The notes beneath the pieces were generated by a model. That model was not told the origin of the DNA and did not search any database. It saw only the letters and a program-made list of their open reading frames with translations. Position numbers and translations under genes: made by a program. Shown here piece by piece: positions 13,126-49,774 of a DNA stretch of 64,000 bases. Source of the DNA: a virus (Duplodnaviria > Caudoviricetes); IMG/VR virus record IMGVR_UViG_2684623050_000001, positions 32,001 to 96,000 of that record; one strand, written 5' to 3'. Every line of letters starts with the position of its first letter. Position 1 is the stretch's first letter.

Positions 13126-13195
13126 GCCGCGTCCCTGTAATAGTAGTATATATAGTTACTTAGTATCTAGTCTTTATCAGGAGCGCGGACTTGGA
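13126..13195. repeat. Imperfect inverted repeat around an AT-rich core, upstream of terS
   Basis: CCGCGTCCCTGTAA-(AT-rich ~33 nt)-TTATCAGGAGCGCGGACTTGGA; related to 27522-27601. Confidence 0.7.
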
Positions 13196-13470
13196 TCTTC
13201 CAAGACAGGCTCTCCGGCTGTGGGCCGGATCAGCTGATAAGCCAGAAGCGTCGGAGCGAGAGATAGCCTGCGTCCGGCTCCATACTTCCGGACGAGGAGC
13301 CCGTGCTGCTCCAGATACCGGATGGAATACTGGAGCGCCTGCGGGGTCGCCTCGTAGGAGAGATCGGCGTGCAGATCGACGAAGCTGAGGTCCCGGCCCG
13401 CATCTGCGGAGCCGAGCACCAGATCCATGATCTCACGCTGCTTTGCTGTGGCTGCGAAGCGCTTGCTCAT
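13177..13470 (-). CDS. Winged-HTH DNA-binding protein
   Basis: TAKQREIMDLV...LSFVDLHADL...PQALQYSIRYLEQHGLLVR: wHTH pattern. Confidence 0.7.
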   Translation of the reverse strand: MSKRFAATAKQREIMDLVLGSADAGRDLSFVDLHADLSYEATPQALQYSIRYLEQHGLLVRKYGAGRRLSLAPTLLAYQLIRPTAGEPVLEDPSPRS

Positions 13471-14396
13471 GTCAGCACCAGGGGTTCGGTCGGCTTCTGC
13501 CGGTCGAATGCGGACAGAGGAAGGCTCTCGGGCAGGACCCGACCCTTGTCCGGGTTCTTCCAGACGCCATACATCGGCGAGGCCAACGTGATCTGTTGCA
13601 GGCTCCGGATCACGCGCCGCGCGTCCATCTCGTCGACCCGGCCCTGGCCCTTGTCGCGGTTGTTGCCGGTCTTCTCCAGCGCCGAGTGCCGGTAGTAGAA
13701 GTCGCGGGCGGCCTGGACGAGCTTCTCCTGCTCGGCCGGCGACTTGCCCGCGATCTCAGCCAGGATGGCCTCGTAGTCGGCCGGGTTCGCCTCGAAATGG
13801 CTGCGGAAGAACTTGAGCCCGGCCTCGAACTTGTTGGCGTTCATCGGCTTGACGAACTTGAACCCGGCCTTCTGCCCGAACAGGTTGAACTTCGACATGG
13901 ACGACTGGATCTCCATGAAGGTGTTCCCCTCCATGCGCGAGACCAGGTTCATCATCCGGTAGCCGCAGCCGATCCCGCGATACATCGTGTCCACGACGAA
14001 GCGCGCGATCACCCGGAAGTTGGCGTTCAGGTAGACGTAGCGGTTGGTGTTGGTGAGCTTGGTCTCGTCTCCACCCGGCTTGAGGCGCGGGAAGGCGACG
14101 TGGCGCTCCTTGAGCAGCCCCTTGGGGTTCGAGGTCACGAGGACGCCGATCGTCTCGCCGTGGAGCGCCAGCTTCCAGAACCGGGGCCCGATCGGCAGGC
14201 TCTCGGCCTTGTAGTGCAGGTCGTGCAGCAGCTCCCAGTCGTCCTTGGTGCCCCGCTCGACGACCATCTCGTCGATCAGCGAAAATCGCGCAGGGGCGCT
14301 TTCACGCGCGATCAGCGTGTCGGGGCCGTCAAACACGACGGTCGCGCTGTGCGACGAACCTCGCGCAACGCTGGGGCATCCAATTTCGAGCGACAT
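13467..14396 (-). CDS. GNAT-fold acyltransferase (predicted DNA-modification, Mom-like clade)
   Basis: LHY motif, IARFVVDTMYRGIGCG (acetyl-CoA binding RGxG), SMSKFNLFGQKAGF; start uncertain. Confidence 0.8.
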   Translation of the reverse strand: MSLEIGCPSVARGSSHSATVVFDGPDTLIARESAPARFSLIDEMVVERGTKDDWELLHDLHYKAESLPIGPRFWKLALHGETIGVLVTSNPKGLLKERHVAFPRLKPGGDETKLTNTNRYVYLNANFRVIARFVVDTMYRGIGCGYRMMNLVSRMEGNTFMEIQSSMSKFNLFGQKAGFKFVKPMNANKFEAGLKFFRSHFEANPADYEAILAEIAGKSPAEQEKLVQAARDFYYRHSALEKTGNNRDKGQGRVDEMDARRVIRSLQQITLASPMYGVWKNPDKGRVLPESLPLSAFDRQKPTEPLVLT

Positions 14397-14575
14397 CTCA
14401 GATCGGGGCGTAGAAGAAAGCTCGAACGAGCAGGGCGGCCCCGCCCAGGCATCCAACGATGCGGGCGAGGTCAATGAAGGTGTCGAGGCTCACGGCTGCG
14501 GGCCGAGCGCGACGAGCACGACGAGGGAGAAAGCTCCGGCGAGGAGCACGCCCCAGAAGGCTTCCCGGATCGTCC

Positions 14576-14863
14576 TCACAGCGTCTCTCCGGCACTCGGA
14601 TTGGTCCAGCGGGTGACGACCGGGCAGGAAACGCCTTCCCGGATGCCGGCCGAGATCGCGCGCCAGGCCATCGCCGGGATGTCCTCGCGGCGCAGGTCTT
14701 CGAGGATGACGGCGCCGTAGGTCTCCGCGGAGACGGCCGCGCGCTCCGAAGCGACCAGGCAGAGGCAATCCACCGTGGTTTCGCGCACCCGGTAGCCCAT
14801 CAGCGGGGCCGAGGAGCGCCAGCCGGAGCGCCGGACGATGAGGATGGTGACGTTCTCGCTCAC
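14576..14863 (-). CDS. Hypothetical protein
   Basis: GTG start overlapping the upstream stop; 95 aa. Confidence 0.4.
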   Translation of the reverse strand: MSENVTILIVRRSGWRSSAPLMGYRVRETTVDCLCLVASERAAVSAETYGAVILEDLRREDIPAMAWRAISAGIREGVSCPVVTRWTNPSAGETL

Positions 14864-15324
14864 GACACGATCTCCCAGTCCTGGGCCAGCAGATCGGACT
14901 GCGAGCACAGCCACGGCACCCGGTTCTTACAGGCCGTGAACATGAACACGTAGGGAAGGCTCATCTTCGAGTGAGCGTCCGGCACCTGAAGCTCCAGATA
15001 CATACCCTTGCCGTTCCAGCCGGCGCGGGCCACGCGCTTGCCGGCCTGCATCGCCTCGACGACCTCGCCGATCCGCAGACCCGTGGTCCGGGGCGCCTCG
15101 GCAGCCGGCGTGGTCAGGATCTTGGCCGCGGTGATGTTGAGGCGATCGGGCGCGCCGCCGAAGGTGATGTTGCCGATCACCAGATCGCCGTTCGTCTTGG
15201 CCTGGATGTCGACCTGCGAGCGCGGCTGTGAGGTCACGACGAGGCCCTCGGGCTCCCGGCTCGTGATGGTCACATCGTGATCGCCGATGACGATCTTGGT
15301 GTGAATGTCGGATTCGGTGCTCAT
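14860..15324 (-). CDS. tad2: DUF2829 / Tad2-like anti-defence sponge with N-terminal extension
   Basis: GKRVARAGWNGKGMYL...PWLCSQSDLLAQDWEIVS matches the DUF2829/Tad2 signature. Confidence 0.8.
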   Translation of the reverse strand: MSTESDIHTKIVIGDHDVTITSREPEGLVVTSQPRSQVDIQAKTNGDLVIGNITFGGAPDRLNITAAKILTTPAAEAPRTTGLRIGEVVEAMQAGKRVARAGWNGKGMYLELQVPDAHSKMSLPYVFMFTACKNRVPWLCSQSDLLAQDWEIVS

Positions 15325-15962
15325 ACTGCTGCCTTCTCGACTTCCACCTTCTCGCGGAAGCGCTTGGTGATGGTGAGGGAGGGACCGAGCTCGTCCTTGA
15401 GGTCGGTGTGGGTGGTCGCGACCATCAGCGTCCGGCCGGCAGCGCGGGCCGCCTTCTGGACGTTGAAGGCGATGACCTTCGCGGTGACGCGATCGAGGAC
15501 GGCGCCGAACTCGTCGGCGACCCACACATCGGCGTTCGAGCCGATGATCTTGGCGAGCTTCACCCGGTAGCGCTGACCGTCGGAGAGCTCGAACGGGCGC
15601 CGGATGAAGATCCAGGCGTCCGAAATGCCGGCCAGACCCAGCAGCCGCAGCCCCTCGGTCATGGAGCCACCCACCTGCTCGATGACGGGCTCGTCCGTGA
15701 GCTCGACCTCGTTGAGATCGGCCACGACCTTGCCGTCGGCGCGCAGCTTGCCCGTCAGGTCGCGCAGGAGCAGCGACTTGCCGGACCCGGACTGGCCGGT
15801 GATGTAGACGACATCGCCCTGGTTCAGCTCGACCAGCAGGTCGTCGTAGACGACGAAGCGCTTGTCGGAGAGGCCCAGACCGAAGGCCTCGGCGACTTCG
15901 AGCACGCGCGGCGTGCGCTCGACCGACGACGAGAAGGCGCGCGAGATCCGGTAGGTGCTCAT
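15321..15962 (-). CDS. ABC-family ATPase (partner of GNAT)
   Basis: GQSGSGKS, LSDGQRYR signature, VADEF, TTH; no permease nearby. Confidence 0.88.
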   Translation of the reverse strand: MSTYRISRAFSSSVERTPRVLEVAEAFGLGLSDKRFVVYDDLLVELNQGDVVYITGQSGSGKSLLLRDLTGKLRADGKVVADLNEVELTDEPVIEQVGGSMTEGLRLLGLAGISDAWIFIRRPFELSDGQRYRVKLAKIIGSNADVWVADEFGAVLDRVTAKVIAFNVQKAARAAGRTLMVATTHTDLKDELGPSLTITKRFREKVEVEKAAV

Positions 15963-16411
15963 GCGCCGAGCTCCGGATCGTCATCGCCGTCGTCGAGGAT
16001 GATGACCTCATCGTCGGTCGGCTCGCCATATTCGGCCAGCTCCACGAGGTCGCCGCGCATCAGCTCCATCGCGCCGATCCAGCGCAGCGCCTCCTGCTCA
16101 ACCCGCTTGCCGGCCGGCGTGCGCAGCGCGAGATCGAAGAAGCCCTCGCGCTCGCCCTTGCACGAGACGATCACCAGCGCGCCCTCGACCTCGCCGGCCT
16201 TGAGCCGGGCCAGGATGCGCTCGACCATCTCGACGGCCTCCTGATCGACCTTGGGCCGACGGACGCGCTTCTTCTTCTCGACCTTCTCCGGCACCCAGGC
16301 CGAGCGGGTCTTGATCGAGATGATCTTCGGCTCCGCGGCGCGCGCCTCCTCGGCCGCCTTCCGCTTGGCGTCGATCTCCTTGATGAGCGGGTTGTTCTCG
16401 AAATCAGGCAT
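15959..16411 (-). CDS. Hypothetical protein
   Basis: 150-aa ORF, coupled stops and starts. Confidence 0.55.
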   Translation of the reverse strand: MPDFENNPLIKEIDAKRKAAEEARAAEPKIISIKTRSAWVPEKVEKKKRVRRPKVDQEAVEMVERILARLKAGEVEGALVIVSCKGEREGFFDLALRTPAGKRVEQEALRWIGAMELMRGDLVELAEYGEPTDDEVIILDDGDDDPELGA

Positions 16412-16658
16412 GGGAAGTCACCACTGACTGACAGGTGCGGACAAGCCGATCCTGGCTCGGCAGGCGCTTGATCGACCCGAGATAGAGAGCGTTGGCGAGG
16501 TAGCCCCGGCGCGCGCGGTCGCGGGCCGTGAAGTTCCAGGCGAGCCCGTCGCGGGTGCGCCAGAAGGCGTGGTAGCGCCCGAAGCGGTTGCGCTGGAAGC
16601 GCATCCGGGTCCCGCCGCAGACGAGCGCGACGAGGATGCAGTTGGCCGGGAAGCGCAT
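16404..16658 (-). CDS. Hypothetical basic protein
   Basis: 84-aa ORF coupled to the ParB-like gene. Confidence 0.4.
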   Translation of the reverse strand: MRFPANCILVALVCGGTRMRFQRNRFGRYHAFWRTRDGLAWNFTARDRARRGYLANALYLGSIKRLPSQDRLVRTCQSVVTSHA

Positions 16659-17332
16659 CAGGCAGCGACCCCGAAGGCGTCGAGGAAGCCCATGAGGGCG
16701 TCCGCGCCGGTCTCGCCGGTCTCACCCTCGATCTTGGCGATGAAGGCCTTCACGCGCCGGCCCTGCTCGACCGTGAGCTTGCCGAAGCCGAGCGCATCCG
16801 CGACCCGCATGGTCGACGTGTCGACGGCCGCGGCCTTCTTGGTGTTCTCGACCTGCTGCTCCTCGACGGCCTCGGAGATGTCCTCGACGAAGGCGCTCTC
16901 GTCGAACTCGGCCGGGTCCTCGGTGAGGAAGCTGAGCTCCTTGGCCTCGTAGCCGAGCAGGTTGACGTCCACGTCGTCCTCGCCGGCGAGCCAGGTCAGG
17001 CTCTCGCGGATCTGGGCGGTGTCGTAGTCCTGGGTGGACGCCTTGTTGTCGGCCAGGCGCATCGCCTCGGCCTGGGCGTCGGAGAGACCCTTCACCACGA
17101 CGGCCGGGACGGACTTGAGGCCCATCTCGATCGCAGCCAGGCGCCGGCCGTGGCCCGCGATGATCTCGCCGTTCTCGCGCAGGATCAGCGGCTGGGTCCA
17201 GACGCCCGCGCCGCGGATGACGCCGACGAGCTTCTTCGTCGTCTCCGGCGTGTGCTTCTTGGCGTTCTTCGCGTAGGGCTTGAGCTTGCCGATCGGCCAG
17301 TGCTCGATGGGCAGGTCAGTCAGCGTCGTCAT
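16658..17332 (-). CDS. ParB/Srx-like N-terminal domain protein
   Basis: LKPYAKNAKKH...GEIIAGHGRRLAA...RLADN. Confidence 0.88.
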   Translation of the reverse strand: MTTLTDLPIEHWPIGKLKPYAKNAKKHTPETTKKLVGVIRGAGVWTQPLILRENGEIIAGHGRRLAAIEMGLKSVPAVVVKGLSDAQAEAMRLADNKASTQDYDTAQIRESLTWLAGEDDVDVNLLGYEAKELSFLTEDPAEFDESAFVEDISEAVEEQQVENTKKAAAVDTSTMRVADALGFGKLTVEQGRRVKAFIAKIEGETGETGADALMGFLDAFGVAA

Positions 17333-23371: not shown

Positions 23372-23580
23372 GCGCCGGCCCCGAGGAGATCGACCTGCTG
23401 GAGCTGGCCCGCGAGCTCATGCGGCAGTTCACGCCCGAGGAGAGAACCGAAGTGGTCCGCGAAGCGGACCGTCTCGGGATCTCCGAGGAATACGTCGTCC
23501 TCGAAGCCATCCTGCAGCTCGATCTGTCCGAGTTCGCGCACGGGGAATTGGGGAGTGGGGAGCCTGGGACCCAAGGATGA
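23368..23580 (+). CDS. Small acidic hypothetical protein
   Basis: 70 aa, coupled to the RHH gene. Confidence 0.45.
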   Translation: MSAGPEEIDLLELARELMRQFTPEERTEVVREADRLGISEEYVVLEAILQLDLSEFAHGELGSGEPGTQG

Positions 23581-23756
23581 TCGCCGGGGATCTGGTGCCT
23601 CTCCCAAGGACCGGCCGGAGATGCTGGTGGACACCCGAGGCATAGCCCAGAGCGCGTGAGTGTGGCTCTAGGACATCACTGTGTCTCAAAAACTACAGTG
23701 ACAAACGTGCAACGTGATGCGCGCGTGCATCAGTGTGTCACGCGCGCATCAGTGTG

Positions 23757-24137
23757 TCATGCTTGCTCGTCAAGCACTAATTCGACGCAATGCATAAGAA
23801 AACGCTTGAAGTCTGCGAAGTTGTCGAAGCGAAAACATTGCTTCTGCAATGTAATGTTTTCGTCAAAGTTAAGATCAGAGCATGCATAATGCGCATCGTT
23901 AAGCGTGCGCACAACGACGTGATGAAAGCTGTCGTGCTTGCGTTCGATGCGCACAGCGTCGATGTAGTGAAACTGCATCACAAGCATTTCAACGCGCTCG
24001 CTGTAAGCGTCAAAATCGTCGCGCGCGCTCATGTCAGTGCGATAGTCTGCGAAGCTGTCGAACGCGCTCATCAGCGCTTGCTCTTGCGCGAGCTTGCGTG
24101 TCTCAGCGTTCATCTCAGCGATATCTTGAAGCGTCAT
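23757..24137 (-). CDS. Gly/Pro/Trp-free hypothetical early protein (126 aa)
   Basis: MTLQDIAEMNAE...; GAGAG-type SD; no G, P or W. Confidence 0.7.
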   Translation of the reverse strand: MTLQDIAEMNAETRKLAQEQALMSAFDSFADYRTDMSARDDFDAYSERVEMLVMQFHYIDAVRIERKHDSFHHVVVRTLNDAHYACSDLNFDENITLQKQCFRFDNFADFKRFLMHCVELVLDEQA

Positions 24138-24197
24138 GACGAAAACTCTCTGTGTTGCTGACAAATGCTTGTCGCATGCGTTCGCATTGCAAGTCAA

Positions 24198-24389
24198 TCA
24201 CTGCTGACTGACTTTTTCGAGCTTTTTGCGCGCGCGATGCTTCGCGACACGCAAGCGCGCATCTTCGTCTCTGTGCGACGCGACAAGCGCTAGATAAGCT
24301 TCGCGTGCGCGTTGCTTCTCTGTGCGAAGCTCGCTCAGACGCGCTTCGATTGACGCGATTTCAGCGCGCAGAGCGTCAGACTTGCACAT
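24198..24389 (-). CDS. Gly/Pro/Trp-free coiled-coil protein (63 aa)
   Basis: LRAEIASIEARLSELRTEKQ heptads; no G, P or W. Confidence 0.55.
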   Translation of the reverse strand: MCKSDALRAEIASIEARLSELRTEKQRAREAYLALVASHRDEDARLRVAKHRARKKLEKVSQQ

Positions 24390-24449
24390 AGCGTTTGCTT
24401 CTCATGAGAGCGTCGCACAGCGCGTTCGCGCGCTCTGAGCTAGTGAGAG

Positions 24450-24478
24450 CGCTAGAGACGCGCGAAGCGTCTCTAGCG
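24450..24478 (-). terminator. GG/CC-free 12-bp hairpin after the 24492 gene
   Basis: CGCTAGAGACGC-GCGAA-GCGTCTCTAGCG; no clear U-tract. Confidence 0.55.
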
Positions 24479-24491
24479 TGCGTCTGAGCGC

Positions 24492-25106
24492 TTAGAGCGC
24501 GACGTTCAGCGCTTTCGCGAGACGCTTCGTCGTCGTCGCGCTCAGATTGAGCTTGTAAGCGACTTTGTTCATGTCGTCGCGCGTCTCTGTCAGCACGTCG
24601 AACATTTGCAGCGCATTGATGCTAGAGCTTGACTGAGTGTCAGCAGTGCTTGCAGCGATGCTGCGAGCGTAGCGCGAAATCAGTTGCTCTTTCGTCGCGT
24701 CGCACTTGAGCGCGTCGCACAGCGACGCTTGAGCGTCAGCGTGCGTCATGCTCTTGTCAGCTTTCGTCAGATTGAGAGCAGTCAAGAAAACGTGCTTGCT
24801 GTAGACGTTCAGCGCTTCAGCTTTGACAGCAGCGCGCGCGACGTTGAACACTTTCTCAGCGCTGTAGACGTTGAAACGCTTGTTGCGACGCTCTTGACGA
24901 TTGATGAAGTCAGCAGCGACGTTCGCAGTGTGCATGACTTCGCAAACGACGTCTGACGCGAAGTCAGCGCGAAGCGACTTGAACGTCTTGAAAATGTTTT
25001 CGTTAGCGTTGTTCTCGCGCTCATAAGCTTCGCGAGCGTCGAAAGCAGAAGTGAGAGCGAGCTTGTAAGCAGTGACAGCTTCGTTCTTCGCGACGTTGTT
25101 GCTCAT
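24492..25106 (-). CDS. Gly/Pro/Trp-free putative wHTH protein (204 aa), paralog of 26363..27271
   Basis: ANVAADFINRQERRNKRFNVYSAEKV vs AAVDTAFVNRTQHDGSRYNVYAIDKV; ASTADTQSSSSINALQMFDVL vs ASTAPTQASSTMQALETLGVV. Confidence 0.85.
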   Translation of the reverse strand: MSNNVAKNEAVTAYKLALTSAFDAREAYERENNANENIFKTFKSLRADFASDVVCEVMHTANVAADFINRQERRNKRFNVYSAEKVFNVARAAVKAEALNVYSKHVFLTALNLTKADKSMTHADAQASLCDALKCDATKEQLISRYARSIAASTADTQSSSSINALQMFDVLTETRDDMNKVAYKLNLSATTTKRLAKALNVAL

Positions 25107-25143
25107 GTCTGTGTCTCTCTGTGTTTGTGTGCTGACAAGAGAC

Positions 25144-25171
25144 AATTTAGTCAGTTCGCATTGAGAGTCAA
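25144..25171 (-). promoter_or_regulatory. Sigma70-like promoter TTGACT-N16-TAAATT for the island gene, overlapped by the 18-bp palindrome at 25168
   Basis: Direct reading of the minus strand. Confidence 0.55.
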
Positions 25172-25666
25172 TCAGCACTGAGTGACTTTTTGCAGAAAAT
25201 AGGAATTTTCTTCTGAGACGCATTCTTGCTCTTGACAGTAGCAAGCGAGCAACACGAGCGTGTGCGCAATCTACATGCGCACAATTCAATGATGCACGAT
25301 GTATTGCGCACGATTTAAGAGCGCTTGATCGAGTGATGCGCGAGCGATCGAGCCCGCGCCGCGCCATGGGTCTCTACCGAAGCCCGCCCCAAGCCGTTCC
25401 TAATTTCCGGAACCGGATGGGTCAACGGCGTCCGCCCATGGCAGCCCGATCCCTCCCATGGCACTCCATGGGGCACCAATGCGAAAATATCGTCTCAGGA
25501 GGCCCGTGGAAGCCCGCGGCAGGCTCCGGAGCTGTCCACGGTGCTCCGGACCCTCCCATGGGGCTCCTGCGCGCCCCTGTGCGATCCCATGGGCTGATCG
25601 AGCGCAACGATATGGGGCGCCCCTCGCGAGACGCCCCTCTGTGTGTCGCGCGTGCTGCGCTACCCC

Positions 25667-25987
25667 TTACGCGAACGCTTCCTCGCGCAGCTCCAGTGCT
25701 TCGGCGCGCTCGCGGGCCTTGCGGTCGATCATGCGCTTGCGCTCGGTGCGGCGTCGCGCGATCTCACGCTCCGCATCCTCGACGTAGAAGCTGTCGAGCT
25801 CTCCCTCGACGAACTCACGGTAGGGCACGCCCAGGGCCCGAGCGACACGCATTTCCATTTTCTCCTCTTGGTCGATGATCTTGCTGAGATGCTGCTTCTG
25901 GACGTTCGGAGCAGCGGCGAGGGCGGCATTCGTGAACTCGATCGCGTCGGCGAGGGCGTTGACGACAGAAGAAACGAGATGGCGCAT
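25667..25987 (-). CDS. Hypothetical protein (106 aa)
   Basis: MRHLVSSVVNAL...; GG-free leader upstream. Confidence 0.55.
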   Translation of the reverse strand: MRHLVSSVVNALADAIEFTNAALAAAPNVQKQHLSKIIDQEEKMEMRVARALGVPYREFVEGELDSFYVEDAEREIARRRTERKRMIDRKARERAEALELREEAFA

Positions 25988-26004
25988 TGGTTGATCTCTT
26001 GTCT

Positions 26005-27314
26005 TGTGAAGCGCTGCGCTTCGTTGCTGACAAGAATGACTATGCACTACGAAATGTATGGATAGAACTGGTGCGTTGTGGTGCAGTATGGGGCGACATG
26101 GATATTAGGATACGTCTCCGGCACGGGACGCGGCCCCACCCCACGGCCTCCCATGGGACCCCGCGGCAGGCCGTGGATCACCGGACCGTGCCCATGGGAA
26201 GCCGAGGAAAGCCGGACCGTGGAGGACCGTGGCCTGCCATGGACCATACCAGGGCCCGCCCCTAGCCGTTCCTAATTCCCAGAACCGGAAGCGCGGGCTC
26301 CCATGGGGCGGACCGAGGCAAGAGAAAGGGGCGCACAGGGCGCCCCAGTCTCGTCTCGGGTCTTAGGCGGCCTTCTGGATCTTCTCCTTGAGCGCCGCGG
26401 TGATCGGGGCGTCGGTCAGGGTGAAGGTGGGGTTGCGGCTCGATCCCTCGCGCTTGACAACCCCGAGGGTCTCCAGGGCCTGCATGGTCGAGGACGCTTG
26501 GGTCGGCGCGGTGCTCGCGGAGACCGTGTGGCGCGTCAGGTGCTTCCGGACCGCGATCTCGACCCCATACTTGTCCGAGGCGCACGCCTTGGCGAGTTCG
26601 AGGCTGAAGGCGTGCCCCGCGGCTTGCAGCGCGAAGATCGACTTGAGGCAGGCGCGGTTGATGGCGTTCTTGACCTCACCCGCGTCGCTGCCGAGGGCGC
26701 GCAGGATGTCGACCACTTTGTCGATGGCGTAGACGTTGTAGCGCGACCCGTCGTGCTGCGTGCGGTTCACGAAGGCGGTGTCGACAGCGGCTGCGATCAG
26801 CACGCGGGCCGGAGCCTTGGAGACGCCCATGCCCTCCCGCGCCTTCTTCAGGGTGCGCTGGATGTTGTGGCCGTCGCCTTTCTTCTGGAGCTCGAACTGG
26901 GCGCGCTCGTCGATCGCGGCGTTGATGGTGCGCTGGGCCATCTCGATGTCCGTGTCGTCGAGCAGGTCCATCAGCTCCCGGAAGCTCGGGCCGGTCGGGG
27001 TAGCGGGCGCTTGGAGCTCGTCGCGCATCTCCTCGGCAGCGATCTCCTGAGCCACGAGATCGAGGACCGCATCGGACGCCTCGGCCTCTTGGACCGGCAG
27101 GTCTGCGAAGGTCTCTTCGAGGCTCAGTTGGATCGCGGCGAGGCGCTCGCTCTCGGCAGCGGCGTCGCGGGTGGCGATCATGGCGTCGTGCTGGAGTTCT
27201 CCGAAGTTGACGTTGATCTTCGGGGCGTCGTTCTTGAAGGACTTGCGGGTGCGAGCGGTCTTAGCGGTCATCTGTCTGTCTTTCGTCTGTGAAGCGCTGC
27301 GCTTCGTTGCTGAC
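26005..27314. repeat. Identical 27-bp leader repeat (26005-26031, 27288-27314) containing a GAAGCG/CGCTTC hairpin
   Basis: TGTGAAGCGCTGCGCTTCGTTGCTGAC in the 5' UTRs of two adjacent genes. Confidence 0.85.
26363..27271 (-). CDS. Putative wHTH protein with acidic N-terminus (302 aa)
   Basis: C-terminal STAPTQASSTMQALETLGVVKREG...TFTL resembles a wHTH recognition helix plus wing; hairpin at ~26327-26346 downstream. Confidence 0.75.
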   Translation of the reverse strand: MTAKTARTRKSFKNDAPKINVNFGELQHDAMIATRDAAAESERLAAIQLSLEETFADLPVQEAEASDAVLDLVAQEIAAEEMRDELQAPATPTGPSFRELMDLLDDTDIEMAQRTINAAIDERAQFELQKKGDGHNIQRTLKKAREGMGVSKAPARVLIAAAVDTAFVNRTQHDGSRYNVYAIDKVVDILRALGSDAGEVKNAINRACLKSIFALQAAGHAFSLELAKACASDKYGVEIAVRKHLTRHTVSASTAPTQASSTMQALETLGVVKREGSSRNPTFTLTDAPITAALKEKIQKAA

Positions 27315-27521
27315 GAAGACTAGAAACGATATTTAGGCTAGGGATGCTACTGGCACGTTATGGAAGCTCTAAGCTTCTGGATACACGCTCGCGTGCTCTA
27401 TATACGTGAGAGCCGATCTCCGGGCGCGCCATGGGAGGCCGAGGAGCCCCTTGGGTCGCCGGTGCCTGCCATGAAATCCCATGGGAGCCCGTGGGTCGCC
27501 GGACGCTTGGAAATCCAAGAG

Positions 27522-27601
27522 CTCCAAGTCCGCGTTCCTGTAAATAGGTATATACAGGTAGATAGTAGGTAATAGGTTTTTACAGGAACGCGGACTTGGA
27601 G
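27522..27601. repeat. Perfect 23-bp inverted repeat around a 34-nt AT-rich TAGGT-repeat core
   Basis: CTCCAAGTCCGCGTTCCTGTAAA / TTTACAGGAACGCGGACTTGGAG. Confidence 0.9.
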
Positions 27602-28329
27602 ATTTCCATGGGATCTCCGGCGACCCGAGGCGTTCCGTGGATCGTTCCAGGGCCCGCCCCTGGCCGTTCCTAAATTCCGGATCAGGAAGACAGACCGCTG
27701 CCGGTGCCCCTCAAGCGGTCCGGACGAGACCTCGGGGCACCGGTCAGCAGCGTCAGCAACAAGCAGGCACAGAGAGAGCCCAGAGGCAGCTGCGCGTCCG
27801 GCGCGCTGCGCTTGCAGTGATAGAGATACAGCAGCGATCGTGGCGAGGCTACCGGATGCGTGTGGGCGTCCAAGGTGTTCGGGGATCGGTGGACGTAGAG
27901 GGAAACGGGCGCCGCGCGGCCGTGTCTATCTGATCCCTCTCCCAGCTATTCCCCACTCCCCGGCTCTCTATGGGCTCACACACGCTGGCGTCTCTCTAGG
28001 GGCTGTCTCTCCCCTCCCCTACGCGCTCCCCACAGACGCTCTCTCGCTCGTGTCTCTCTGATGCTGATGCGCTCTATTCGTTGGATGCGTCGCTCGCTTC
28101 GCTCAGAGCATCACACAGCGCGTTTCGTTCGTTCTGTGTCTCTCTGACGCTCTCACATGCTTCCCGACGCTCTATGAGCTTCTCATGCGATTTGCCCCTA
28201 AGACGCTCTCGATCGGGTCCATGTCTCTCTAGAGCTGATTGATGGTTTTGGGCTGCGAAATCGGGCTGCTCGGGCTCATGTCCCCTGATGAGACATTTTC
28301 CGCAAAATCGCGTTCGCATTGGATTTTGA

Positions 28330-28458
28330 TGGGACATCCATAGGACATCCAGGTGACATCCATGGGACATCGGTGAGACATTCGCGGCCCTCGCCCGATA
28401 GTTCGCATTGAGGTTCGAGGGGACATGCAGGTGACGTCCATGGGACATCCATGAGACA
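28330..28458. repeat. Two clusters of 11-bp tandem repeats (iteron/centromere-like)
   Basis: TGGGACATCCA-type units at 28330, 28341, 28352, 28363, 28374 and 28419, 28430, 28441, 28452. Confidence 0.85.
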
Positions 28459-28561
28459 GGCCTGGCCTCTCCGGACCGTGGCCTGTGTGAGCCTGGACCA
28501 GGCTTCCATGGACCGGGTGCTCTACGAAGAAGGGGCGCCCGTGGTGCGCCCCTGTGTGGTC

Positions 28562-48353: not shown

Positions 48354-48906
48354 GGTCGATCTCCGTCGTGTCGAAGGGGAGGGTGAAGCTCTGCCAGCGA
48401 ACGCCCTTGAAGAAGCAGGCCATCATGACCTCGACGTCGTAGTCGGCCGCGTGAGCGGCGCCGGTGCTGTAGGGGACGTCGAAGGCCGCGCAGAGCTTGC
48501 CGAGGTTCGGGACCGAACCCTCGGGCGTCGCGCAGCGGCCCTCAAGCATGGTGTCGAACCAGGGCGTCTTGATCTCGGTGAGGCCGATCCGCTTCAGCTC
48601 GTAGTTGGTGAAGGGCGCATCGAAGCCATCGCCGTTGTGGGCGACGATCAGATCGGCGTCGGAGAGGCGCTTGTGAACCTCGGGCGCGACGTCCTTCCAG
48701 ACCGGGCAGCCGGCAAGATCCGAGATCGAGATCTTGTGGACCTTCTGCGCTGCCGCGTCGATCGCGCGCTGCGGATTGATCCGCTGCACGTAGCGGTCGA
48801 TCAGCTTCTCGGTGCGCAGATCGTAGGTCAGCAGCGCGACCTCGATGATGCGGTGATCGCCGGGCGCGAGGCCCGTCGTCTCGGTGTCGTAGCCGACGAC
48901 CTTCAT
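48337..48906 (-). CDS. DEDDh 3'-5' exonuclease (DnaQ/epsilon-like)
   Basis: DTETTG, AHNGDGFD, AHAADYD. Confidence 0.92.
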   Translation of the reverse strand: MKVVGYDTETTGLAPGDHRIIEVALLTYDLRTEKLIDRYVQRINPQRAIDAAAQKVHKISISDLAGCPVWKDVAPEVHKRLSDADLIVAHNGDGFDAPFTNYELKRIGLTEIKTPWFDTMLEGRCATPEGSVPNLGKLCAAFDVPYSTGAAHAADYDVEVMMACFFKGVRWQSFTLPFDTTEIDLAAAA

Positions 48907-49418
48907 CACGCGGCGCTCCGGATGCTGTAGTCGCGGTGGCCGCGCCAGGCGTGCATCAGCTGCGCCATCGTCTCCTCGAAATCGTGGTTCTCGTGCTGGA
49001 TCGCGATGCCGCCCATCGCCGTCCAGGCGTCGCAGTTGCGGTCCCAGTCGTCGATCAGGATGTCGCCGGGCGCGTGCATGAACAGCGGCTTGTTCTTGCC
49101 GCCCATGACCGGCAGGACCGTCACGTTGGCGCCCAGGTGCTCCCGGACCCACTCGCGCTTCTGGAGCGCGACGCGCTGGTAGTCGGAGCGCGGGCAGGCC
49201 GTCAGGATGATCGGCTCCATGTCGGCGATCTGCCGGTAGAACTCCAGCGCGCCGGGGCAGACCGGCATGTCGCGGAAATAGGTCCCGTGACCCGTGATCT
49301 TGGCCCACATATCGTTGTCGAGCATCGACTTGTGGTCGACGCCGAACAGCGCCGGGAAATGCGCGTCGAAATCGGCCATCACGCCGTCGAGATCGAGGTA
49401 GAGGCGGCGGGTCGTCAT
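48906..49418 (-). CDS. HAD-family 5'(3')-deoxyribonucleotidase
   Basis: DLDGVMADF, ILT, KREW, LIDD. Confidence 0.88.
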   Translation of the reverse strand: MTTRRLYLDLDGVMADFDAHFPALFGVDHKSMLDNDMWAKITGHGTYFRDMPVCPGALEFYRQIADMEPIILTACPRSDYQRVALQKREWVREHLGANVTVLPVMGGKNKPLFMHAPGDILIDDWDRNCDAWTAMGGIAIQHENHDFEETMAQLMHAWRGHRDYSIRSAA

Positions 49419-49774
49419 TGCGGTGCGTGCTCCTTCAGTTCCTGACGGGCGCGGTAGATGAGCTGGGCGATGTCCCAGTCCACGAGCCCGGACACGGTGT
49501 CGTAGATGCCGTCCACGATGCACCAGAGCTCCCGCCCGGTGATCTGGCCGTCCGAGAATCGCAGCTGGGCGTCGGCGAGTGTGCCTAAAGCCTTGCGCGT
49601 GATCTCGTCTTTCATTGTCGCCCATTCGCTTTTCAGCGGCTTCGCGGGTTCGCGCTTGGGCGATCTGAGTTTCGTGGCGAGCTCCCGGAGCAGCCCCGAG
49701 GCGGGGTTGTCGGGCCTCAGTCGGTCCAGGGCCTTCGCCCCGGCCTCACAAGCGATTGCGTGACGCTCGCTCAT
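49415..49774 (-). CDS. Hypothetical protein
   Basis: 119 aa, SD GAGGA, promoter 49812-49840. Confidence 0.5.
   Translation of the reverse strand: MSERHAIACEAGAKALDRLRPDNPASGLLRELATKLRSPKREPAKPLKSEWATMKDEITRKALGTLADAQLRFSDGQITGRELWCIVDGIYDTVSGLVDWDIAQLIYRARQELKEHAPQ

What the first reader, a model, noticed from the sequence alone, without database searches (positions are those of the whole stretch)
23673..25352. 1.5-kb island with no GG/CC dinucleotide, encoding only Gly/Pro/Trp-free proteins
Seen: elsewhere in this GC-rich genome GG or CC occurs every few bases. Here 23673-25201 has none, there is one GG at 25202, and none again until 25353, with abrupt edges. The three genes inside (126, 63 and 204 aa) contain no Gly (GGN), Pro (CCN) or Trp (TGG). 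Their ribosome-binding sites are GAGAG-like rather than GGAGG, and the hairpin at 24450-24478 is built without GG/CC. Inference: strong selection against a GG-directed event. The best explanation is bulky modification of GG sites in virion DNA that blocks host RNA polymerase, so the first genes expressed must be GG-free. An alternative is a PAM-free (type I-F CC/GG or NGG) or restriction-proof anti-defence island.
Basis: partly seen in the sequence, partly recalled or inferred. Interest (0 to 1): 0.97.

Follow-up and report, generated by a model that had tools for sequence, protein, structure and literature searches.

The report
GG/CC-free operon in a phage-plasmid
A 118-kb plasmid-like phage and dozens of its relatives keep one small regulator operon written entirely without the DNA step GG/CC, so its proteins have no glycine, proline or tryptophan, which implies that some still unidentified factor reads this tiny DNA word and that this operon must escape it.

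Summary
Window 23673-25201 has no GG or CC (a 1531-bp gap). There is one GG at 25202 and none again until 25353. The next-longest gap is 80 bp in the window and 115 bp in the 5.6-Mb genome.

The tract is an operon on a 117.7-kb siphovirus-type phage-plasmid. It has a sigma70-like promoter and three minus-strand genes, and it ends at a hairpin. Its first gene encodes a winged-helix DNA-binding protein, and a normally composed paralog lies 1.3 kb away.

The trait is inherited and selected:
- GG/CC-free tracts of 0.4-1.4 kb cover this gene in most relatives, down to about 40% protein identity.
- 62 of 127 short-form family proteins have no Gly, Pro or Trp.
- Listed substitutions in near relatives create no GG/CC.
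- One derived clade (M. oryzae type) has lost the trait.
- One lineage bans only BCC/GGV.

The constraint is symmetric for GG and CC, so it acts at the DNA-duplex level.

- The replicon avoids many restriction sites genome-wide, including GG/CC-containing ones.
- The candidate ParB/ABC-ATPase/GNAT-like module is equally conserved in the relaxed clade.

Type I-F was not found in the sampled host family. The agent remains unknown.

This scan noted the same phenomenon before on other DNA (at least 21 genomes). Five literature searches found nothing in print.

The parts
23673..25201 (.). Core tract without any GG or CC (1529 bp)
   Evidence: gap of 1531 between GG/CC at 23671 and 25202. 214 are expected from composition. 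It is unique in the 5.6-Mb genome.
25203..25352 (.). Second GG/CC-free stretch (150 bp) upstream of the promoter, separated from the core by the single GG at 25202. It carries TGCGCA-type palindromes.
   Evidence: Its function is not tested.
25144..25171 (-). Sigma70-like promoter of the operon (TTGACT-16-TAAATT) with the core CAATGCGAAC in the spacer
   Evidence: (the only promoter-like hit in 23500-25500). This is a consensus match only; no transcript data exist.
24492..25106 (-). Gene 1: 204-aa protein, pI 9.1, with no Gly, Pro or Trp. It has a helical N-domain plus a C-terminal winged-helix DNA-binding domain. It is the family member found in every related tract.
   Evidence: AlphaFold2 model pLDDT 92.4. 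VIA Z 7-8.3 to MarR, RosR, MecI and linker-histone winged helices over residues 84-203. No Pfam or PHROG family.
24451..24477 (-). Inter-genic hairpin, 11-bp stem and 5-nt loop, built without GG/CC. The same GAGACGCGCGAAGCGTCTC motif recurs twice at the 3' end of the tract in L008.
24198..24389 (-). Gene 2: 63-aa basic, probably coiled-coil protein with no Gly, Pro or Trp. It is replaced by 33 other (also GG/CC-free) letters in the relative held by run X3.
24180..24217 (-). Second copy of the promoter region (84% identical to 25154-25191), in front of gene 3
   Evidence: (repeat D9)
23757..24137 (-). Gene 3: 126-aa acidic protein (pI 4.8) with no Gly, Pro or Trp. It is related to a 231-aa ORF in the tract of L007.
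   Evidence: BLASTP 4e-13. Only one near-length homolog was found.
23715..23751 (-). 3' stem-loop (perfect stem 11-13 bp) 6 nt after the stop of gene 3. The tract ends 42 nt further on.
   Evidence: Comparable stems of at least 10 bp lie at the 3' edge in 7 of 9 loci. Stems of at least 9 bp occur near 8 of about 400 random control positions.
26363..27271 (-). Long paralog (302 aa) of gene 1 with ordinary composition (13 Gly, 9 Pro). It is the internal control showing that the fold tolerates these residues.
   Evidence: (BLASTP 5e-13, 27% over 159 aa)

Best explanation
The tract is one transcription unit of a temperate, siphovirus-type phage-plasmid. It runs from a host-type promoter through a winged-helix DNA-binding regulator gene and two small accessory genes to a terminal hairpin.

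Long-standing purifying selection removes every occurrence of the duplex step GG/CC from this unit. The proteins have therefore given up glycine, proline and tryptophan, the ribosome-binding sites are GAGAG-like, and the hairpins use only GC/CG stacks.

The most likely reason is exemption. A sequence-reading protein factor acts on DNA that carries this short word by cutting, marking or blocking it. This one operon has to stay intact and transcribable while that factor is active, probably as the first host-polymerase-transcribed unit after entry. This is the logic of the pre-early (first-step-transfer) region of phage T5, where only sites in the first-expressed DNA matter.

The word that is read differs between lineages. 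It is CC here, only BCC (not ACC) in the M. extorquens element, and nothing in the M. oryzae clade. This is how the specificity of an enzyme or binding protein evolves.

Shown: the absence, its conservation, its selection, its symmetry, and the lineage-specific word.

Inferred: that the unit is early, that the agent works on duplex DNA, and what the agent is. It may be encoded by the host or the phage and is unidentified.
For: Reality and uniqueness.

Conservation:
- GG/CC-free tracts at the family gene measure 750 bp in L008, 979 in L013, 830 in L014, 1373+246 in L015, 951+272 in L016/L017, 455+326 in L012, 501+189 in L006/L010, 458 in L011, 942 in L030, 804 in L031, 526+381 in L032 and 1294 in L034.
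- In G108 (L004/L005) they measure 506 and 390 bp.
- In L019 the tract holds a divergent family member on the other strand.

Protein level:
- 392 profile hits were found, and 193 proteins were held.
- Of 127 short forms, 62 have 0 G/P/W, 45 have 1-8, and 20 have more than 8.
- The 66 long paralogous forms have 8-20 (median 15) in the last 190 residues, so the fold does not require the depletion.

Ancestral state: the relaxed clade P0012-P0019 is monophyletic (100/100) and nested among zero-G/P/W lineages, with the long paralog as outgroup.

Ongoing selection.

Duplex-level symmetry:
- Partly relaxed proteins regain Gly:Pro at 91:46, like the long forms at 623:343.
- In L007 sense-strand ACC has returned at 8 of 32 opportunities and sense-strand GGT at 2 of 15.

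Lineage-specific word:
- In L007, 21 of 22 tolerated sites are ACC/GGT.
- The NCC census in the tract is ACC 21, TCC 1, GCC 0, CCC 0. In the flanks it is 560, 618, 1229, 656.
- That gives 2057 bp free of BCC/GGV with one exception.

Transcription-unit shape:
- The last upstream GG/CC lies 53-72 nt before the ATG in 6 of 10 loci (L008, L013, L014, L012, L006, L011).
- That position is at the -35/spacer of a sigma70-like promoter. A strict scan found the promoter in the window, L012 and L006. The others are 8-of-12 matches read by eye.
- The 3' edge lies beside a perfect stem of at least 10 bp in 7 of 9 loci. Stems of at least 9 bp occur near 8 of about 400 control positions.

Precedent for the logic: in T5-like phages, R-M and CRISPR work only if their sites lie in the first-step-transfer region (passages of PMC10644984).
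Against: - No agent was identified. No defence or toxin family was found among 10 unannotated replicon proteins (PADLOC), and Pfam found nothing informative.
- Nothing shows when the operon is expressed. No RNA data could be laid, and the one RNA-library hit is a contig that may be DNA.
- The tract is not shown to be at a virion DNA end. It lies about 10.6 kb from the terminase genes, and in the two IMG/VR records classed as having terminal repeats it is not near a contig end.
- The flanks are of ordinary composition. A classical nuclease that kills by one cut anywhere would not be escaped unless only this unit is exposed.
- The transcription-unit boundary is not universal. In the window the tract runs 97 nt (with the 150-bp extension, about 250 nt) upstream of the ATG, and in L016 and L015 it runs 274 and more than 400 nt upstream. 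L006 and L011 carry 5-6 CC within the first 40-175 nt of the coding region.
- The only complete relaxed element differs from constrained ones in many genes at once, so nothing can be pinned on one gene. It lacks rIIA/rIIB and has methyltransferase-domain proteins, TcmP/DUF5131 and HEPN-Toprim.
Confidence: 0.45

Rival explanations
1. First reader's favoured idea. The phage marks its own virion DNA at GG/CC with a bulky group that host RNA polymerase cannot read through. The first operon to be transcribed from incoming DNA must therefore contain no markable site.
For: - A terminase-linked module is present: ParB-like (phrog_930), ABC ATPase (phrog_293, phrog_11143), a 335-aa partner (phrog_886) and a small wHTH (phrog_900).
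- The nearest named atlas clusters of the 335-aa partner are GNAT acetyltransferases (score 0.96, 211 shared features). This is a lead only.
- A GNAT coupled with an ABC ATPase was predicted in print to acylate a DNA base (passage of PMC7824862).
- The idea fits the promoter-to-hairpin shape, the strand symmetry and a word that differs between lineages.
Against: - The module is intact and 57-82% identical in the M. oryzae element, whose ortholog carries 71 GG/CC.
- The replicon avoids restriction sites genome-wide, including CCCGGG, GGATCC and TGGCCA. That would be unnecessary if GG/CC were protected by a bulky mark.
- Pfam found no GNAT domain.
- No nucleotide-replacement enzymes were recognised.
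Confidence: 0.15
2. RNA-level cause. An endoribonuclease or RNA-modifying toxin (from the host or the phage) acts on GG and on CC in single-stranded RNA, and only this transcript has to survive it.
For: - The edges coincide with a promoter and with terminal hairpins.
- The ribosome-binding sites are GG-less.
- In L013 the only GG/CC near the 3' end lie inside a 12-bp stem, where they would be double-stranded in RNA.
Against: - It needs two different RNA words of equal weight. GG and CC are equally banned, and Gly and Pro return at the unconstrained ratio.
- The CC excess seen in partly relaxed genes is what codon usage predicts: fully relaxed orthologs show GG:CC of 18:53 and 17:47.
- In the window, L015 and L016 the free tract runs 100-400 nt upstream of the predicted start.
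Confidence: 0.12
3. Self-exemption. The operon's own winged-helix protein (or its long paralog) binds GG/CC-rich iterons such as the CCATGG arrays that start 12 bp from the tract, and coats or silences neighbouring DNA. Its own unit stays expressed because it offers no foothold.
For: - The one constant of all tracts is this gene.
- The protein is a winged-helix DNA binder.
- 16 of the window's 28 CCATGG lie in 25364-28511, with 10-11-bp spacing.
- In several relatives a CCC/GGG half-site abuts the -35.
Against: - The relaxed clade keeps the putative recognition helix (TQSSSSINALQMF) unchanged, yet its gene carries 56-71 GG/CC.
- Avoiding a 6-bp site does not require removing every GG/CC.
- Binding was not tested.
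Confidence: 0.1
4. PAM-free island. The tract cannot be targeted or sampled by CRISPR systems that use CC/GG PAMs (type I-F, some type II).
For: - The absence is strand-symmetric.
- In T5 relatives, CRISPR targeting works only within the first-step-transfer DNA (PMC10644984 passages). A small PAM-free early region could therefore suffice.
Against: - There is no Cas1 in the host genome.
- Csy3 was found in 0 of 201 sampled genomes of the host family, with the E. coli control positive.
- GG/CC sits in the promoter -35/spacer of 6 of 10 loci, and the flanks are normal, so adjacent protospacers remain available.
- The Cas9_PI search was empty but its control was silent, so type II is untested.
Confidence: 0.06
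5. Mutational erosion. A CC-specific cytosine deaminase (APOBEC-like, acting on transcribed DNA) has simply mutated all targets away, without selection on function.
For: - G+C falls from about 0.65 to 0.53-0.57 in the tract.
- The tract begins about where DNA is melted by polymerase.
- A BCC preference recalls the context rules of deaminases. This comparison is recalled, not tested.
Against: - The ORFs are intact and conserved down to about 40% identity.
- GC and CG dinucleotides are enriched (observed/expected 1.84 and 1.65), rather than the deamination products TC, CT, GA and AG.
- The listed substitutions in relatives include many transversions, and 17 changes to G or C all avoid creating GG/CC. 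That is selection, not one-way decay.
Confidence: 0.04

Closest known systems
Pre-early (first-step-transfer) region of phage T5 and relatives
   Same: It is a short, first-expressed part of a ~120-kb siphovirus genome whose freedom from recognition sites decides whether nuclease defences work. [quoted passage not shown] Both use host-type promoters and encode small proteins of unknown function.
   Different: - T5 lacks particular 6-bp sites in about 10 kb of terminal repeat. Here a 2-bp step is absent from 1.5 kb, at the cost of three amino acids.
- No homology to T5 pre-early genes was found (no PHROG hit for the 204-aa protein).
- A terminal position and two-step entry are not shown.
- The element is a temperate phage-plasmid with RepC and ParA.
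Genome-wide restriction-site avoidance and PAM depletion in phages
   Same: Selection removes short words that a host system reads. The same replicon shows it classically, with GTAC 0 of 184 expected and CTCGAG 0 of 145 expected. PAM depletion in phages is described in PMC4246573, of which I saw only the search listing and the start of the abstract.
   Different: Classical avoidance is genome-wide and concerns 4-6-bp words. Here it is confined to one operon, is absolute, concerns a dinucleotide, and reshapes the protein alphabet.
Predicted ABC ATPase + GNAT DNA-base acylation system with ParB-like partners
   Same: The replicon carries ParB-like, ABC-ATPase and GNAT-like ORFs just upstream of the terminase. 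Such a pair was predicted to acylate a DNA base (PMC7824862 passage). It is the only candidate writer of a mark.
   Different: The activity is untested anywhere. Its presence does not co-vary with the tract, because it is conserved in the relaxed M. oryzae element. Pfam did not detect a GNAT domain here.
T4 Alc-type template discrimination (transcription shut off on ordinary but not on modified DNA)
   Same: In both cases a phage factor lets polymerase work only on DNA of a given chemical or compositional class. A jumbo-phage analogue is described in a passage of PMC7824862.
   Different: Alc distinguishes C from 5-hydroxymethyl-C over the whole genome. Here the distinction would be the presence or absence of a dinucleotide in one operon. 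No Alc-like protein was found.

Membership tests
T5-type pre-early / first-step-transfer region | Lies in the terminal DNA segment that enters the cell first | not testable with these tools
   No virion ends are known. No raw reads held the stretch, and the laid contigs showed no places where molecules begin or end (table 6).
T5-type pre-early / first-step-transfer region | Free of the recognition sites of nuclease defences while the rest of the genome is not | tested here: inconclusive
   The tract is free of every GG/CC-containing site but contains other palindromes such as AAGCTT, GCATGC and GCGCGC. The rest of the replicon itself avoids many sites.
T5-type pre-early / first-step-transfer region | Encodes homologs of T5 pre-early proteins (A1, A2, Dmp) | tested here: not met
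   No PHROG or Pfam family was found for the 204-aa protein, and only sub-threshold Pfam hits for the 63-aa and 126-aa proteins. A deoxyribonucleotidase-like gene exists elsewhere (48906-49625) and is present in only 1 of the 5 related records searched (4 complete IMG/VR relatives plus the M. oryzae plasmid).
CRISPR PAM depletion (type I-F CC PAM) | Hosts carry a system that uses the depleted motif as PAM | tested here: not met
   Cas1 was found in 0 of 1 (own genome). Csy3 was found in 0 of 201 sampled genomes of the host family with a positive control. These are samples, not proof of absence.
CRISPR PAM depletion (type II NGG PAM) | Hosts carry Cas9 | tested here: inconclusive
   Cas9_PI was found in 0 of 201 genomes, but nothing matched in any control genome.
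ABC ATPase-GNAT predicted DNA acylation module as the writer of a GG/CC mark | ABC ATPase and GNAT acyltransferase encoded together with ParB-like proteins | tested here: inconclusive
   The ABC ATPase (PF00005, 3.6e-13; phrog_293, phrog_11143) and a ParB-like protein (phrog_930) are present. The 335-aa partner has no Pfam GNAT hit but its nearest atlas clusters are GNAT (a lead only).
ABC ATPase-GNAT predicted DNA acylation module as the writer of a GG/CC mark | Presence or loss co-varies with the GG/CC-free tract | tested here: not met
   The ABC ATPase is 75% identical, the 335-aa partner 82% and the ParB-like protein 58% in the relaxed M. oryzae element.
MarR-like / winged-helix DNA-binding proteins (for the 204-aa protein) | Winged-helix fold (three helices plus a beta hairpin) | tested here: met
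   The model has pLDDT 92.4 with helix 152-168 followed by strands 172-176 and 182-186. VIA gives Z 7-8.3 with rmsd 1.9-3.2 over 72-84 residues. These Z values indicate a common fold only.
MarR-like / winged-helix DNA-binding proteins (for the 204-aa protein) | Sequence membership in a curated family | tested here: not met
   There are no Pfam or PHROG hits. Foldseek found nothing in the PDB at E <= 0.001. Two uncharacterised phage proteins in BFVD share the whole fold (E 1.5e-9 and 2e-7).

The most novel reading that the evidence does not exclude
A previously undescribed protein factor reads the two-base duplex step GG/CC, with lineage-specific three-base variants such as BCC. It could be a new kind of host defence or a phage-made DNA mark. 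It governs the first moments of infection or the maintenance of a whole superfamily of ~110-120-kb phages and phage-plasmids. These phages have answered by rewriting one regulator operon in a 14-dinucleotide, 17-amino-acid alphabet.
Probability: 0.5. Interest if true: 0.95.

Novelty: new variant of a known kind. Interest (0 to 1): 0.88.

Why it matters
Motif avoidance usually reveals what a host or phage enzyme recognises. Here the avoided word is only two bases long, the avoidance is absolute, and it is confined to one operon. It is old enough to have removed three amino acids from a widespread protein family. That is a natural experiment in two respects.
- It points to an unknown reader of GG/CC, whether a defence, a DNA mark or a transcription block.
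- It shows that a folded DNA-binding protein and its partners can be built and evolve for a long time without Gly, Pro or Trp. A normally composed paralog next door serves as the control.

The lineage that bans only BCC and the clade that lost the ban give ready-made comparison material.

Tried and rejected
Hypermutation as a one-off event was rejected, because the trait is conserved and selected.

A structural need for G/P/W-free proteins was rejected, because the long paralogs carry 8-20 such residues in the same domain.

Strand asymmetry (GG banned more strictly than CC on the mRNA strand) looked promising but was dropped:
- Fully relaxed orthologs show the same CC excess.
- Gly:Pro returns at the unconstrained ratio.
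- L007 shows no asymmetry.

Looking for a causal gene by presence or absence:
- The deoxyribonucleotidase is in 1 of the 5 related records searched, G304 only.
- rIIA is in 4 of 4 complete IMG/VR relatives and in C2 but not in the relaxed M. oryzae element.
- The M. oryzae methyltransferase-domain protein and TcmP are in 0 of 4 (both answers were empty, without a positive control among the records searched).
- With one complete relaxed element these are anecdotes. L028 (relaxed, 148-kb contig) was not held and so was not searched.

Searches that found nothing useful:
- PADLOC on 10 unannotated proteins gave 0 families.
- Pfam on 10 C2-specific proteins gave only DUF4314.
- NCBIfam gave nothing beyond dUTPase, a ThyX-like protein and ParB.
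- No named phage in the phages collection encodes the family (tblastn, E <= 1e-3).
- Only one plasmid record does.
- The relaxed clade shows no residual banned 3- or 4-letter word.

Sequencing runs:
- No run held half of the words. X1 and X2 are near-identical low-depth contigs, and X3 and X4 are relatives.
- No raw reads were laid, so there is no evidence on expression, ends or modification.
- Only 40 of 287 difference rows were printed, and the substitution test uses those rows only.

Literature: searches found no description of a GG/CC-free phage region. Supplementary files were not consulted.

Full report
OBSERVATION

The window has 10,462 GG or CC dinucleotides in 64,000 bases, about one every six bases. 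Between 23671 and 25202 there is none, a gap of 1531. After the single GG at 25202 there is again none until 25353. The next-longest gap in the window is 80. In the whole 5.6-Mb genome the next-longest gap is 115.

The base composition of the tract predicts 214 GG+CC, and 2000 shuffles never gave fewer than 175. The tract keeps 53-57% G+C by alternating G and C (observed/expected: GC 1.84, CG 1.65).

Three minus-strand ORFs of 204, 63 and 126 aa fill it, and each has no Gly, Pro or Trp.

The depletion is at the nucleotide level, not only the protein level:
- Recoding these already G/P/W-free proteins with the replicon's codon usage gives a mean of 136 GG/CC (minimum 110 of 2000).
- Shuffling the island's own codons among synonymous positions still gives 41.7 at codon junctions (minimum 30).
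- The observed number is zero.
- 341 non-coding bases are also free.

Two of the three ribosome-binding sites read ACAGAGAG. By comparison, 50 of 103 ordinary genes of the replicon have GGAG/GAGG/AGGA.

CONTEXT

The window is part of contig C2, a 117,697-bp replicon of 65% G+C beside a 5.4-Mb chromosome. C2 carries:
- Plasmid functions: RepC, and ParA with a ribbon-helix-helix partner.
- A full set of siphovirus-type structural and packaging genes.
- A large replication and recombination set: a DnaE-type polymerase, helicase, SbcCD, UvsX/RecA-like, RNR, dUTPase and a ThyX-like protein.
- rIIA and rIIB.

C2 is collinear with a 116,758-bp plasmid of Methylobacterium oryzae, annotated with a terminase, major capsid, tape measure and repC. 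Related IMG/VR contigs are 116-119 kb. C2 is therefore a temperate phage-plasmid.

ANATOMY

The only sigma70-like site in 23500-25500 is TTGACT-16-TAAATT at 25171-25144 on the minus strand, 38-65 nt before the ATG of the 204-aa gene. An 84% identical copy of that region precedes the 126-aa gene.

The 204-aa protein gives a confident model (pLDDT 92.4). The model has a helical N-terminal half and a C-terminal winged helix:
- VIA Z is 7-8.3 to MarR, RosR, MecI and linker-histone domains over residues 84-203.
- Foldseek probabilities are about 0.9 for MarR-type chains, but no E-value is below 0.001.
- The protein belongs to no Pfam or PHROG family.

It is a paralog of the 302-aa ORF at 26363-27271, which has ordinary composition (13 Gly, 9 Pro). 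A perfect 11-13-bp stem lies 6 nt after the last stop codon, and the tract ends 42 nt later.

THE TRAIT IS INHERITED

A word-based search gave 43 homologs of the 204-aa protein, most of them without Gly, Pro or Trp even at 42% identity. The DNA of relatives was fetched with the family alignment.

Genome collection: 1 locus.

Viral contigs: 13 loci, examined.
- 10 carry a GG/CC-free tract of at least 400 bp at or beside the gene: L008 750, L010 501+189, L011 458, L012 455+326, L013 979, L014 830, L015 1373+246, L016 and L017 951+272, and L019 404+263+234. In L019 the tract holds a divergent family member on the other strand.
- L007 and L018 are partly relaxed.
- L009 is fully relaxed.

Metagenome contigs: 8 loci.
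- Five are constrained: L029 830, L030 942, L031 804, L032 526+381, L034 1294.
- L033 is the record of L019.
- L027 (the record of L009) and L028 are relaxed.

The M. oryzae plasmid ortholog has 71 GG/CC in 609 bp. In the host family, 2 of 301 sampled genomes (own genome included) encode the protein.

A profile search of 1.84 billion representatives found 392 proteins. Of the 193 family proteins I held:
- 127 are short forms. Of these, 62 have no G/P/W, 45 have 1-8, and 20 have more.
- 66 are long forms (the paralog type), with 8-20 (median 15) in their last 190 residues.
The fold therefore tolerates these residues, and the depletion is specific to the short-form lineage.

On a maximum-likelihood tree rooted with the long paralog, the relaxed M. 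oryzae-type proteins form one clade (100/100) nested among G/P/W-free lineages. The constrained state is ancestral and was lost once in this sample.

THE TRAIT IS UNDER PRESENT-DAY SELECTION

Contigs of two public runs hold relatives about 93-96% identical to the tract.
- In X4, 37 substitutions are listed within the tract and 17 of them are to G or C. None creates a GG or CC. Random placement of the same changes creates 9.7 on average and never zero in 5000 trials.
- In X3, 11 substitutions are listed and one creates a CC, at 25142/3, between the -10 and the predicted start.
- Only 40 of 287 difference rows were printed, so this is a sample.

WHAT KIND OF CONSTRAINT

(a) It is symmetric.
- GG and CC are both absent on the sense strand.
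- Partly relaxed proteins regain Gly and Pro at 91:46, the ratio of the unconstrained long forms (623:343).
- An apparent excess of sense-strand CC in partly relaxed genes is what codon usage predicts, since fully relaxed orthologs show 18:53 and 17:47.
- GG on one strand is CC on the other, so a single reader of the duplex step is the economical explanation. An RNA-level cause would need two words of equal weight.

(b) It has roughly the shape of a transcription unit.
- In 6 of 10 loci the last upstream GG/CC lies 53-72 nt before the ATG, at the -35 or in the spacer of a sigma70-like promoter. Strict matches were found in the window, L012 and L006. The others are 8-of-12 matches read by eye.
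- At the 3' side a perfect stem of at least 10 bp lies within -94..+45 of the edge in 7 of 9 loci. Stems of at least 9 bp occur near 8 of about 400 random positions.
- Exceptions must be told. In the window, L016 and L015 the free tract runs 97, 274 and more than 400 nt upstream of the ATG. L006 and L011 carry 5-6 CC in the first 40-175 nt of the coding region.

(c) The banned word differs between lineages.
- In the M. extorquens element (L007), 21 of 22 tolerated sites are ACC (GGT on the other strand).
- The NCC census of its 2-kb tract is ACC 21, TCC 1, GCC 0, CCC 0. The flanks give 560, 618, 1229, 656.
- Pro codons occur only after A-ending codons.
- 2057 bp are free of BCC/GGV with one exception.
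- ACC/GGT has returned at 8 of 32 and 2 of 15 synonymous opportunities, against 0.56-0.67 in ordinary genes. The narrowing is therefore recent and shows no strand bias.
- Its close relative L008 bans every CC, and the relaxed clade shows no residual word.
A word that shifts by one position between close relatives is the behaviour of a protein's recognition pocket.

Modification.

The replicon escapes restriction by avoidance on a grand scale. Observed against expected counts are:
- GTAC 0 of 184
- CTCGAG 0 of 145
- ATCGAT 1 of 52
- TGATCA 1 of 34
- TTCGAA 0 of 30
- ACGCGT 2 of 28
- CACGTG 0 of 21
- GTGCAC 0 of 14
- ACATGT 0 of 10
- CCCGGG 2 of 38 (GG/CC-bearing)
- GGATCC 1 of 32 (GG/CC-bearing)
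- TGGCCA 2 of 27.5 (GG/CC-bearing)

The M. oryzae element avoids a partly different set (CAGCTG 0 of 50, but not CTCGAG, CCCGGG, GGATCC or TGGCCA). A genome that must purge BamHI-, SmaI- and MscI-type sites is not protected by a blanket mark on GG/CC.

A candidate marking module does exist just upstream of the terminase:
- a ParB-like protein, an ABC ATPase and a small wHTH;
- a 335-aa partner whose nearest atlas clusters are GNAT acetyltransferases (a lead only);
- a GNAT coupled to an ABC ATPase was predicted in print to acylate a DNA base (PMC7824862, passages read).
But the module is intact and 57-82% identical in the relaxed M. oryzae element. Its presence does not track the tract.

PAM.
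- The host has no Cas1.
- Csy3 was found in 0 of 201 sampled genomes of the host family, with the control positive.
- The Cas9 search had a silent control.
- GG/CC in promoter spacers and normal flanks would leave protospacers available.

MOST LIKELY WORKING

I read the tract as an operon that must remain intact and transcribable while a GG/CC-reading factor is active on other DNA. That is the logic known from the T5 pre-early region, where defences succeed only if their sites lie in the first-expressed DNA (PMC10644984, passages read). The differences from T5 are large: a dinucleotide rather than a hexamer, 1.5 kb rather than 10 kb, no shared genes, and no evidence for a terminal position. 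The agent is unidentified.

The operon's lead gene is a winged-helix protein. Arrays of CCATGG-type iterons with 10-11-bp spacing begin 12 bp from the tract. Two further promoters with the same CAATGCGAAC core sit beside such iterons at about 28312 and 28401. I therefore infer that the protein is an early regulator or origin-binding factor for this region. This is inference only.

The rivals, in order of my odds, are: own-DNA modification (0.15), an RNA-level agent (0.12), self-exemption from the operon's own DNA-binding protein (0.10), PAM avoidance (0.06) and mutational erosion (0.04).

EARLIER NOTES OF THIS SCAN

The same phenomenon was noted before on other DNA: 27 notes in at least 21 genomes, among them Pseudomonas ~110-kb phages and rhizobial, SSU5-like and Methylobacterium phage-plasmids. 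These are unchecked AI notes.
- I took from them the lead that the banned word may differ between lineages. I tested it here and it holds in L007.
- I took the lead on the ParB/ABC/GNAT module. I tested it here, and its presence does not track the tract, which agrees with most of those follow-ups.
- One note's claim of strand dependence is not borne out by my tests.
- A terminal position proposed in another note could not be tested.

NOVELTY

Five full-text searches found no description of a GG/CC-free phage region or of G/P/W-free phage proteins. As a kind, this is motif avoidance, which is known. As an instance, it is a local, absolute, dinucleotide-level purge that rewrites a protein family's alphabet and has a lineage-specific word. 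It lies far from described cases and points to an unknown reader.

Noticed in passing
whole contig C2 (window 1-64000 and beyond): There is extreme genome-wide avoidance of palindromic sites. Observed against expected: GTAC 0 of 184, CTCGAG 0 of 145, ATCGAT 1 of 52, CCCGGG 2 of 38, TGATCA 1 of 34, GGATCC 1 of 32, TTCGAA 0 of 30, ACGCGT 2 of 28, TGGCCA 2 of 27.5, CACGTG 0 of 21, GTGCAC 0 of 14, ACATGT 0 of 10. The related M. oryzae plasmid avoids a partly different set (CAGCTG 0 of 50).
   Followed up: partly
window 25360-25595, 26140-26310, 27425-27640, 28355-28515: 16 of the window's 28 CCATGG lie in four intergenic blocks that start 12 bp from the tract. At 28334-28460 they form 11-bp-periodic iterons (GACATCCATGG). 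They are likely binding arrays for the winged-helix paralogs or an origin.
   Followed up: partly
window 25144-25191, 24180-24217, ~28312-28330, ~28401-28420: Four promoter-like regions share the core CAATGCGAAC between the -35 and -10. The two outside the tract have weak -35 hexamers overlapped by iterons, as if they depend on an activator.
   Followed up: no
window 26005-26031 and 27288-27314: A 27-nt repeat, 100% identical, with an internal hairpin lies in the GG/CC-free leaders (70-71 nt) of the 302-aa paralog and of the ORF at 25667-26047. The leaders of neighbouring early genes are thus also free of GG/CC, although their coding regions are not.
   Followed up: no
window 27522-27601: A 30-nt inverted repeat (90% complementary) surrounds an AT-rich 20-nt core between the iteron blocks. 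Together they look like a replication origin.
   Followed up: no
window 28030-28163: A GG/CC-poor stretch (gaps of 53 and 80) with three copies of the leader-like motif AGAGAGACA lies downstream of a 16-codon ORF that starts at 28222. It may be a small RNA or a leader peptide.
   Followed up: no
window 13177-17332: A terminase-linked module consists of a ParB-like protein (16658-17332), an ABC ATPase (15321-15962), a 335-aa GNAT-like partner (13467-14474) and a small wHTH (13177-13470). It is a split form of a DNA-acylation system predicted in print, and it is conserved in the M. oryzae plasmid.
   Followed up: partly
window 49860-53757: rIIA and rIIB homologs occur in a siphovirus-type phage-plasmid. 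rIIA is present in 4 of 4 complete IMG/VR relatives but was not found in the M. oryzae plasmid, the one complete element that lost the GG/CC ban.
   Followed up: partly
L024 7593-10309 and 18160-19449; L026 18505-20297 (M. oryzae plasmid): The relaxed element carries genes not found in C2: TcmP with a DUF5131 partner, a HEPN/Toprim protein, and two methyltransferase-domain proteins. TcmP and one of the methyltransferase-domain proteins were also searched in the four complete relatives and not found; those answers were empty and had no positive control.
   Followed up: partly
L004 and L005 (genome G108, contig C3): A genome of another genus in the host family has two partial copies of the family gene about 2.2 kb apart. 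One has an in-frame TGA, and both lie in GG/CC-free stretches of 390-506 bp.
   Followed up: no
window 24216-24407: In the relative held by run X3 the 63-aa gene is replaced by 33 other letters that are themselves free of GG/CC. In X4, 827 other letters stand between 24197 and 24550. The accessory genes of the operon turn over while the ban is kept.
   Followed up: no
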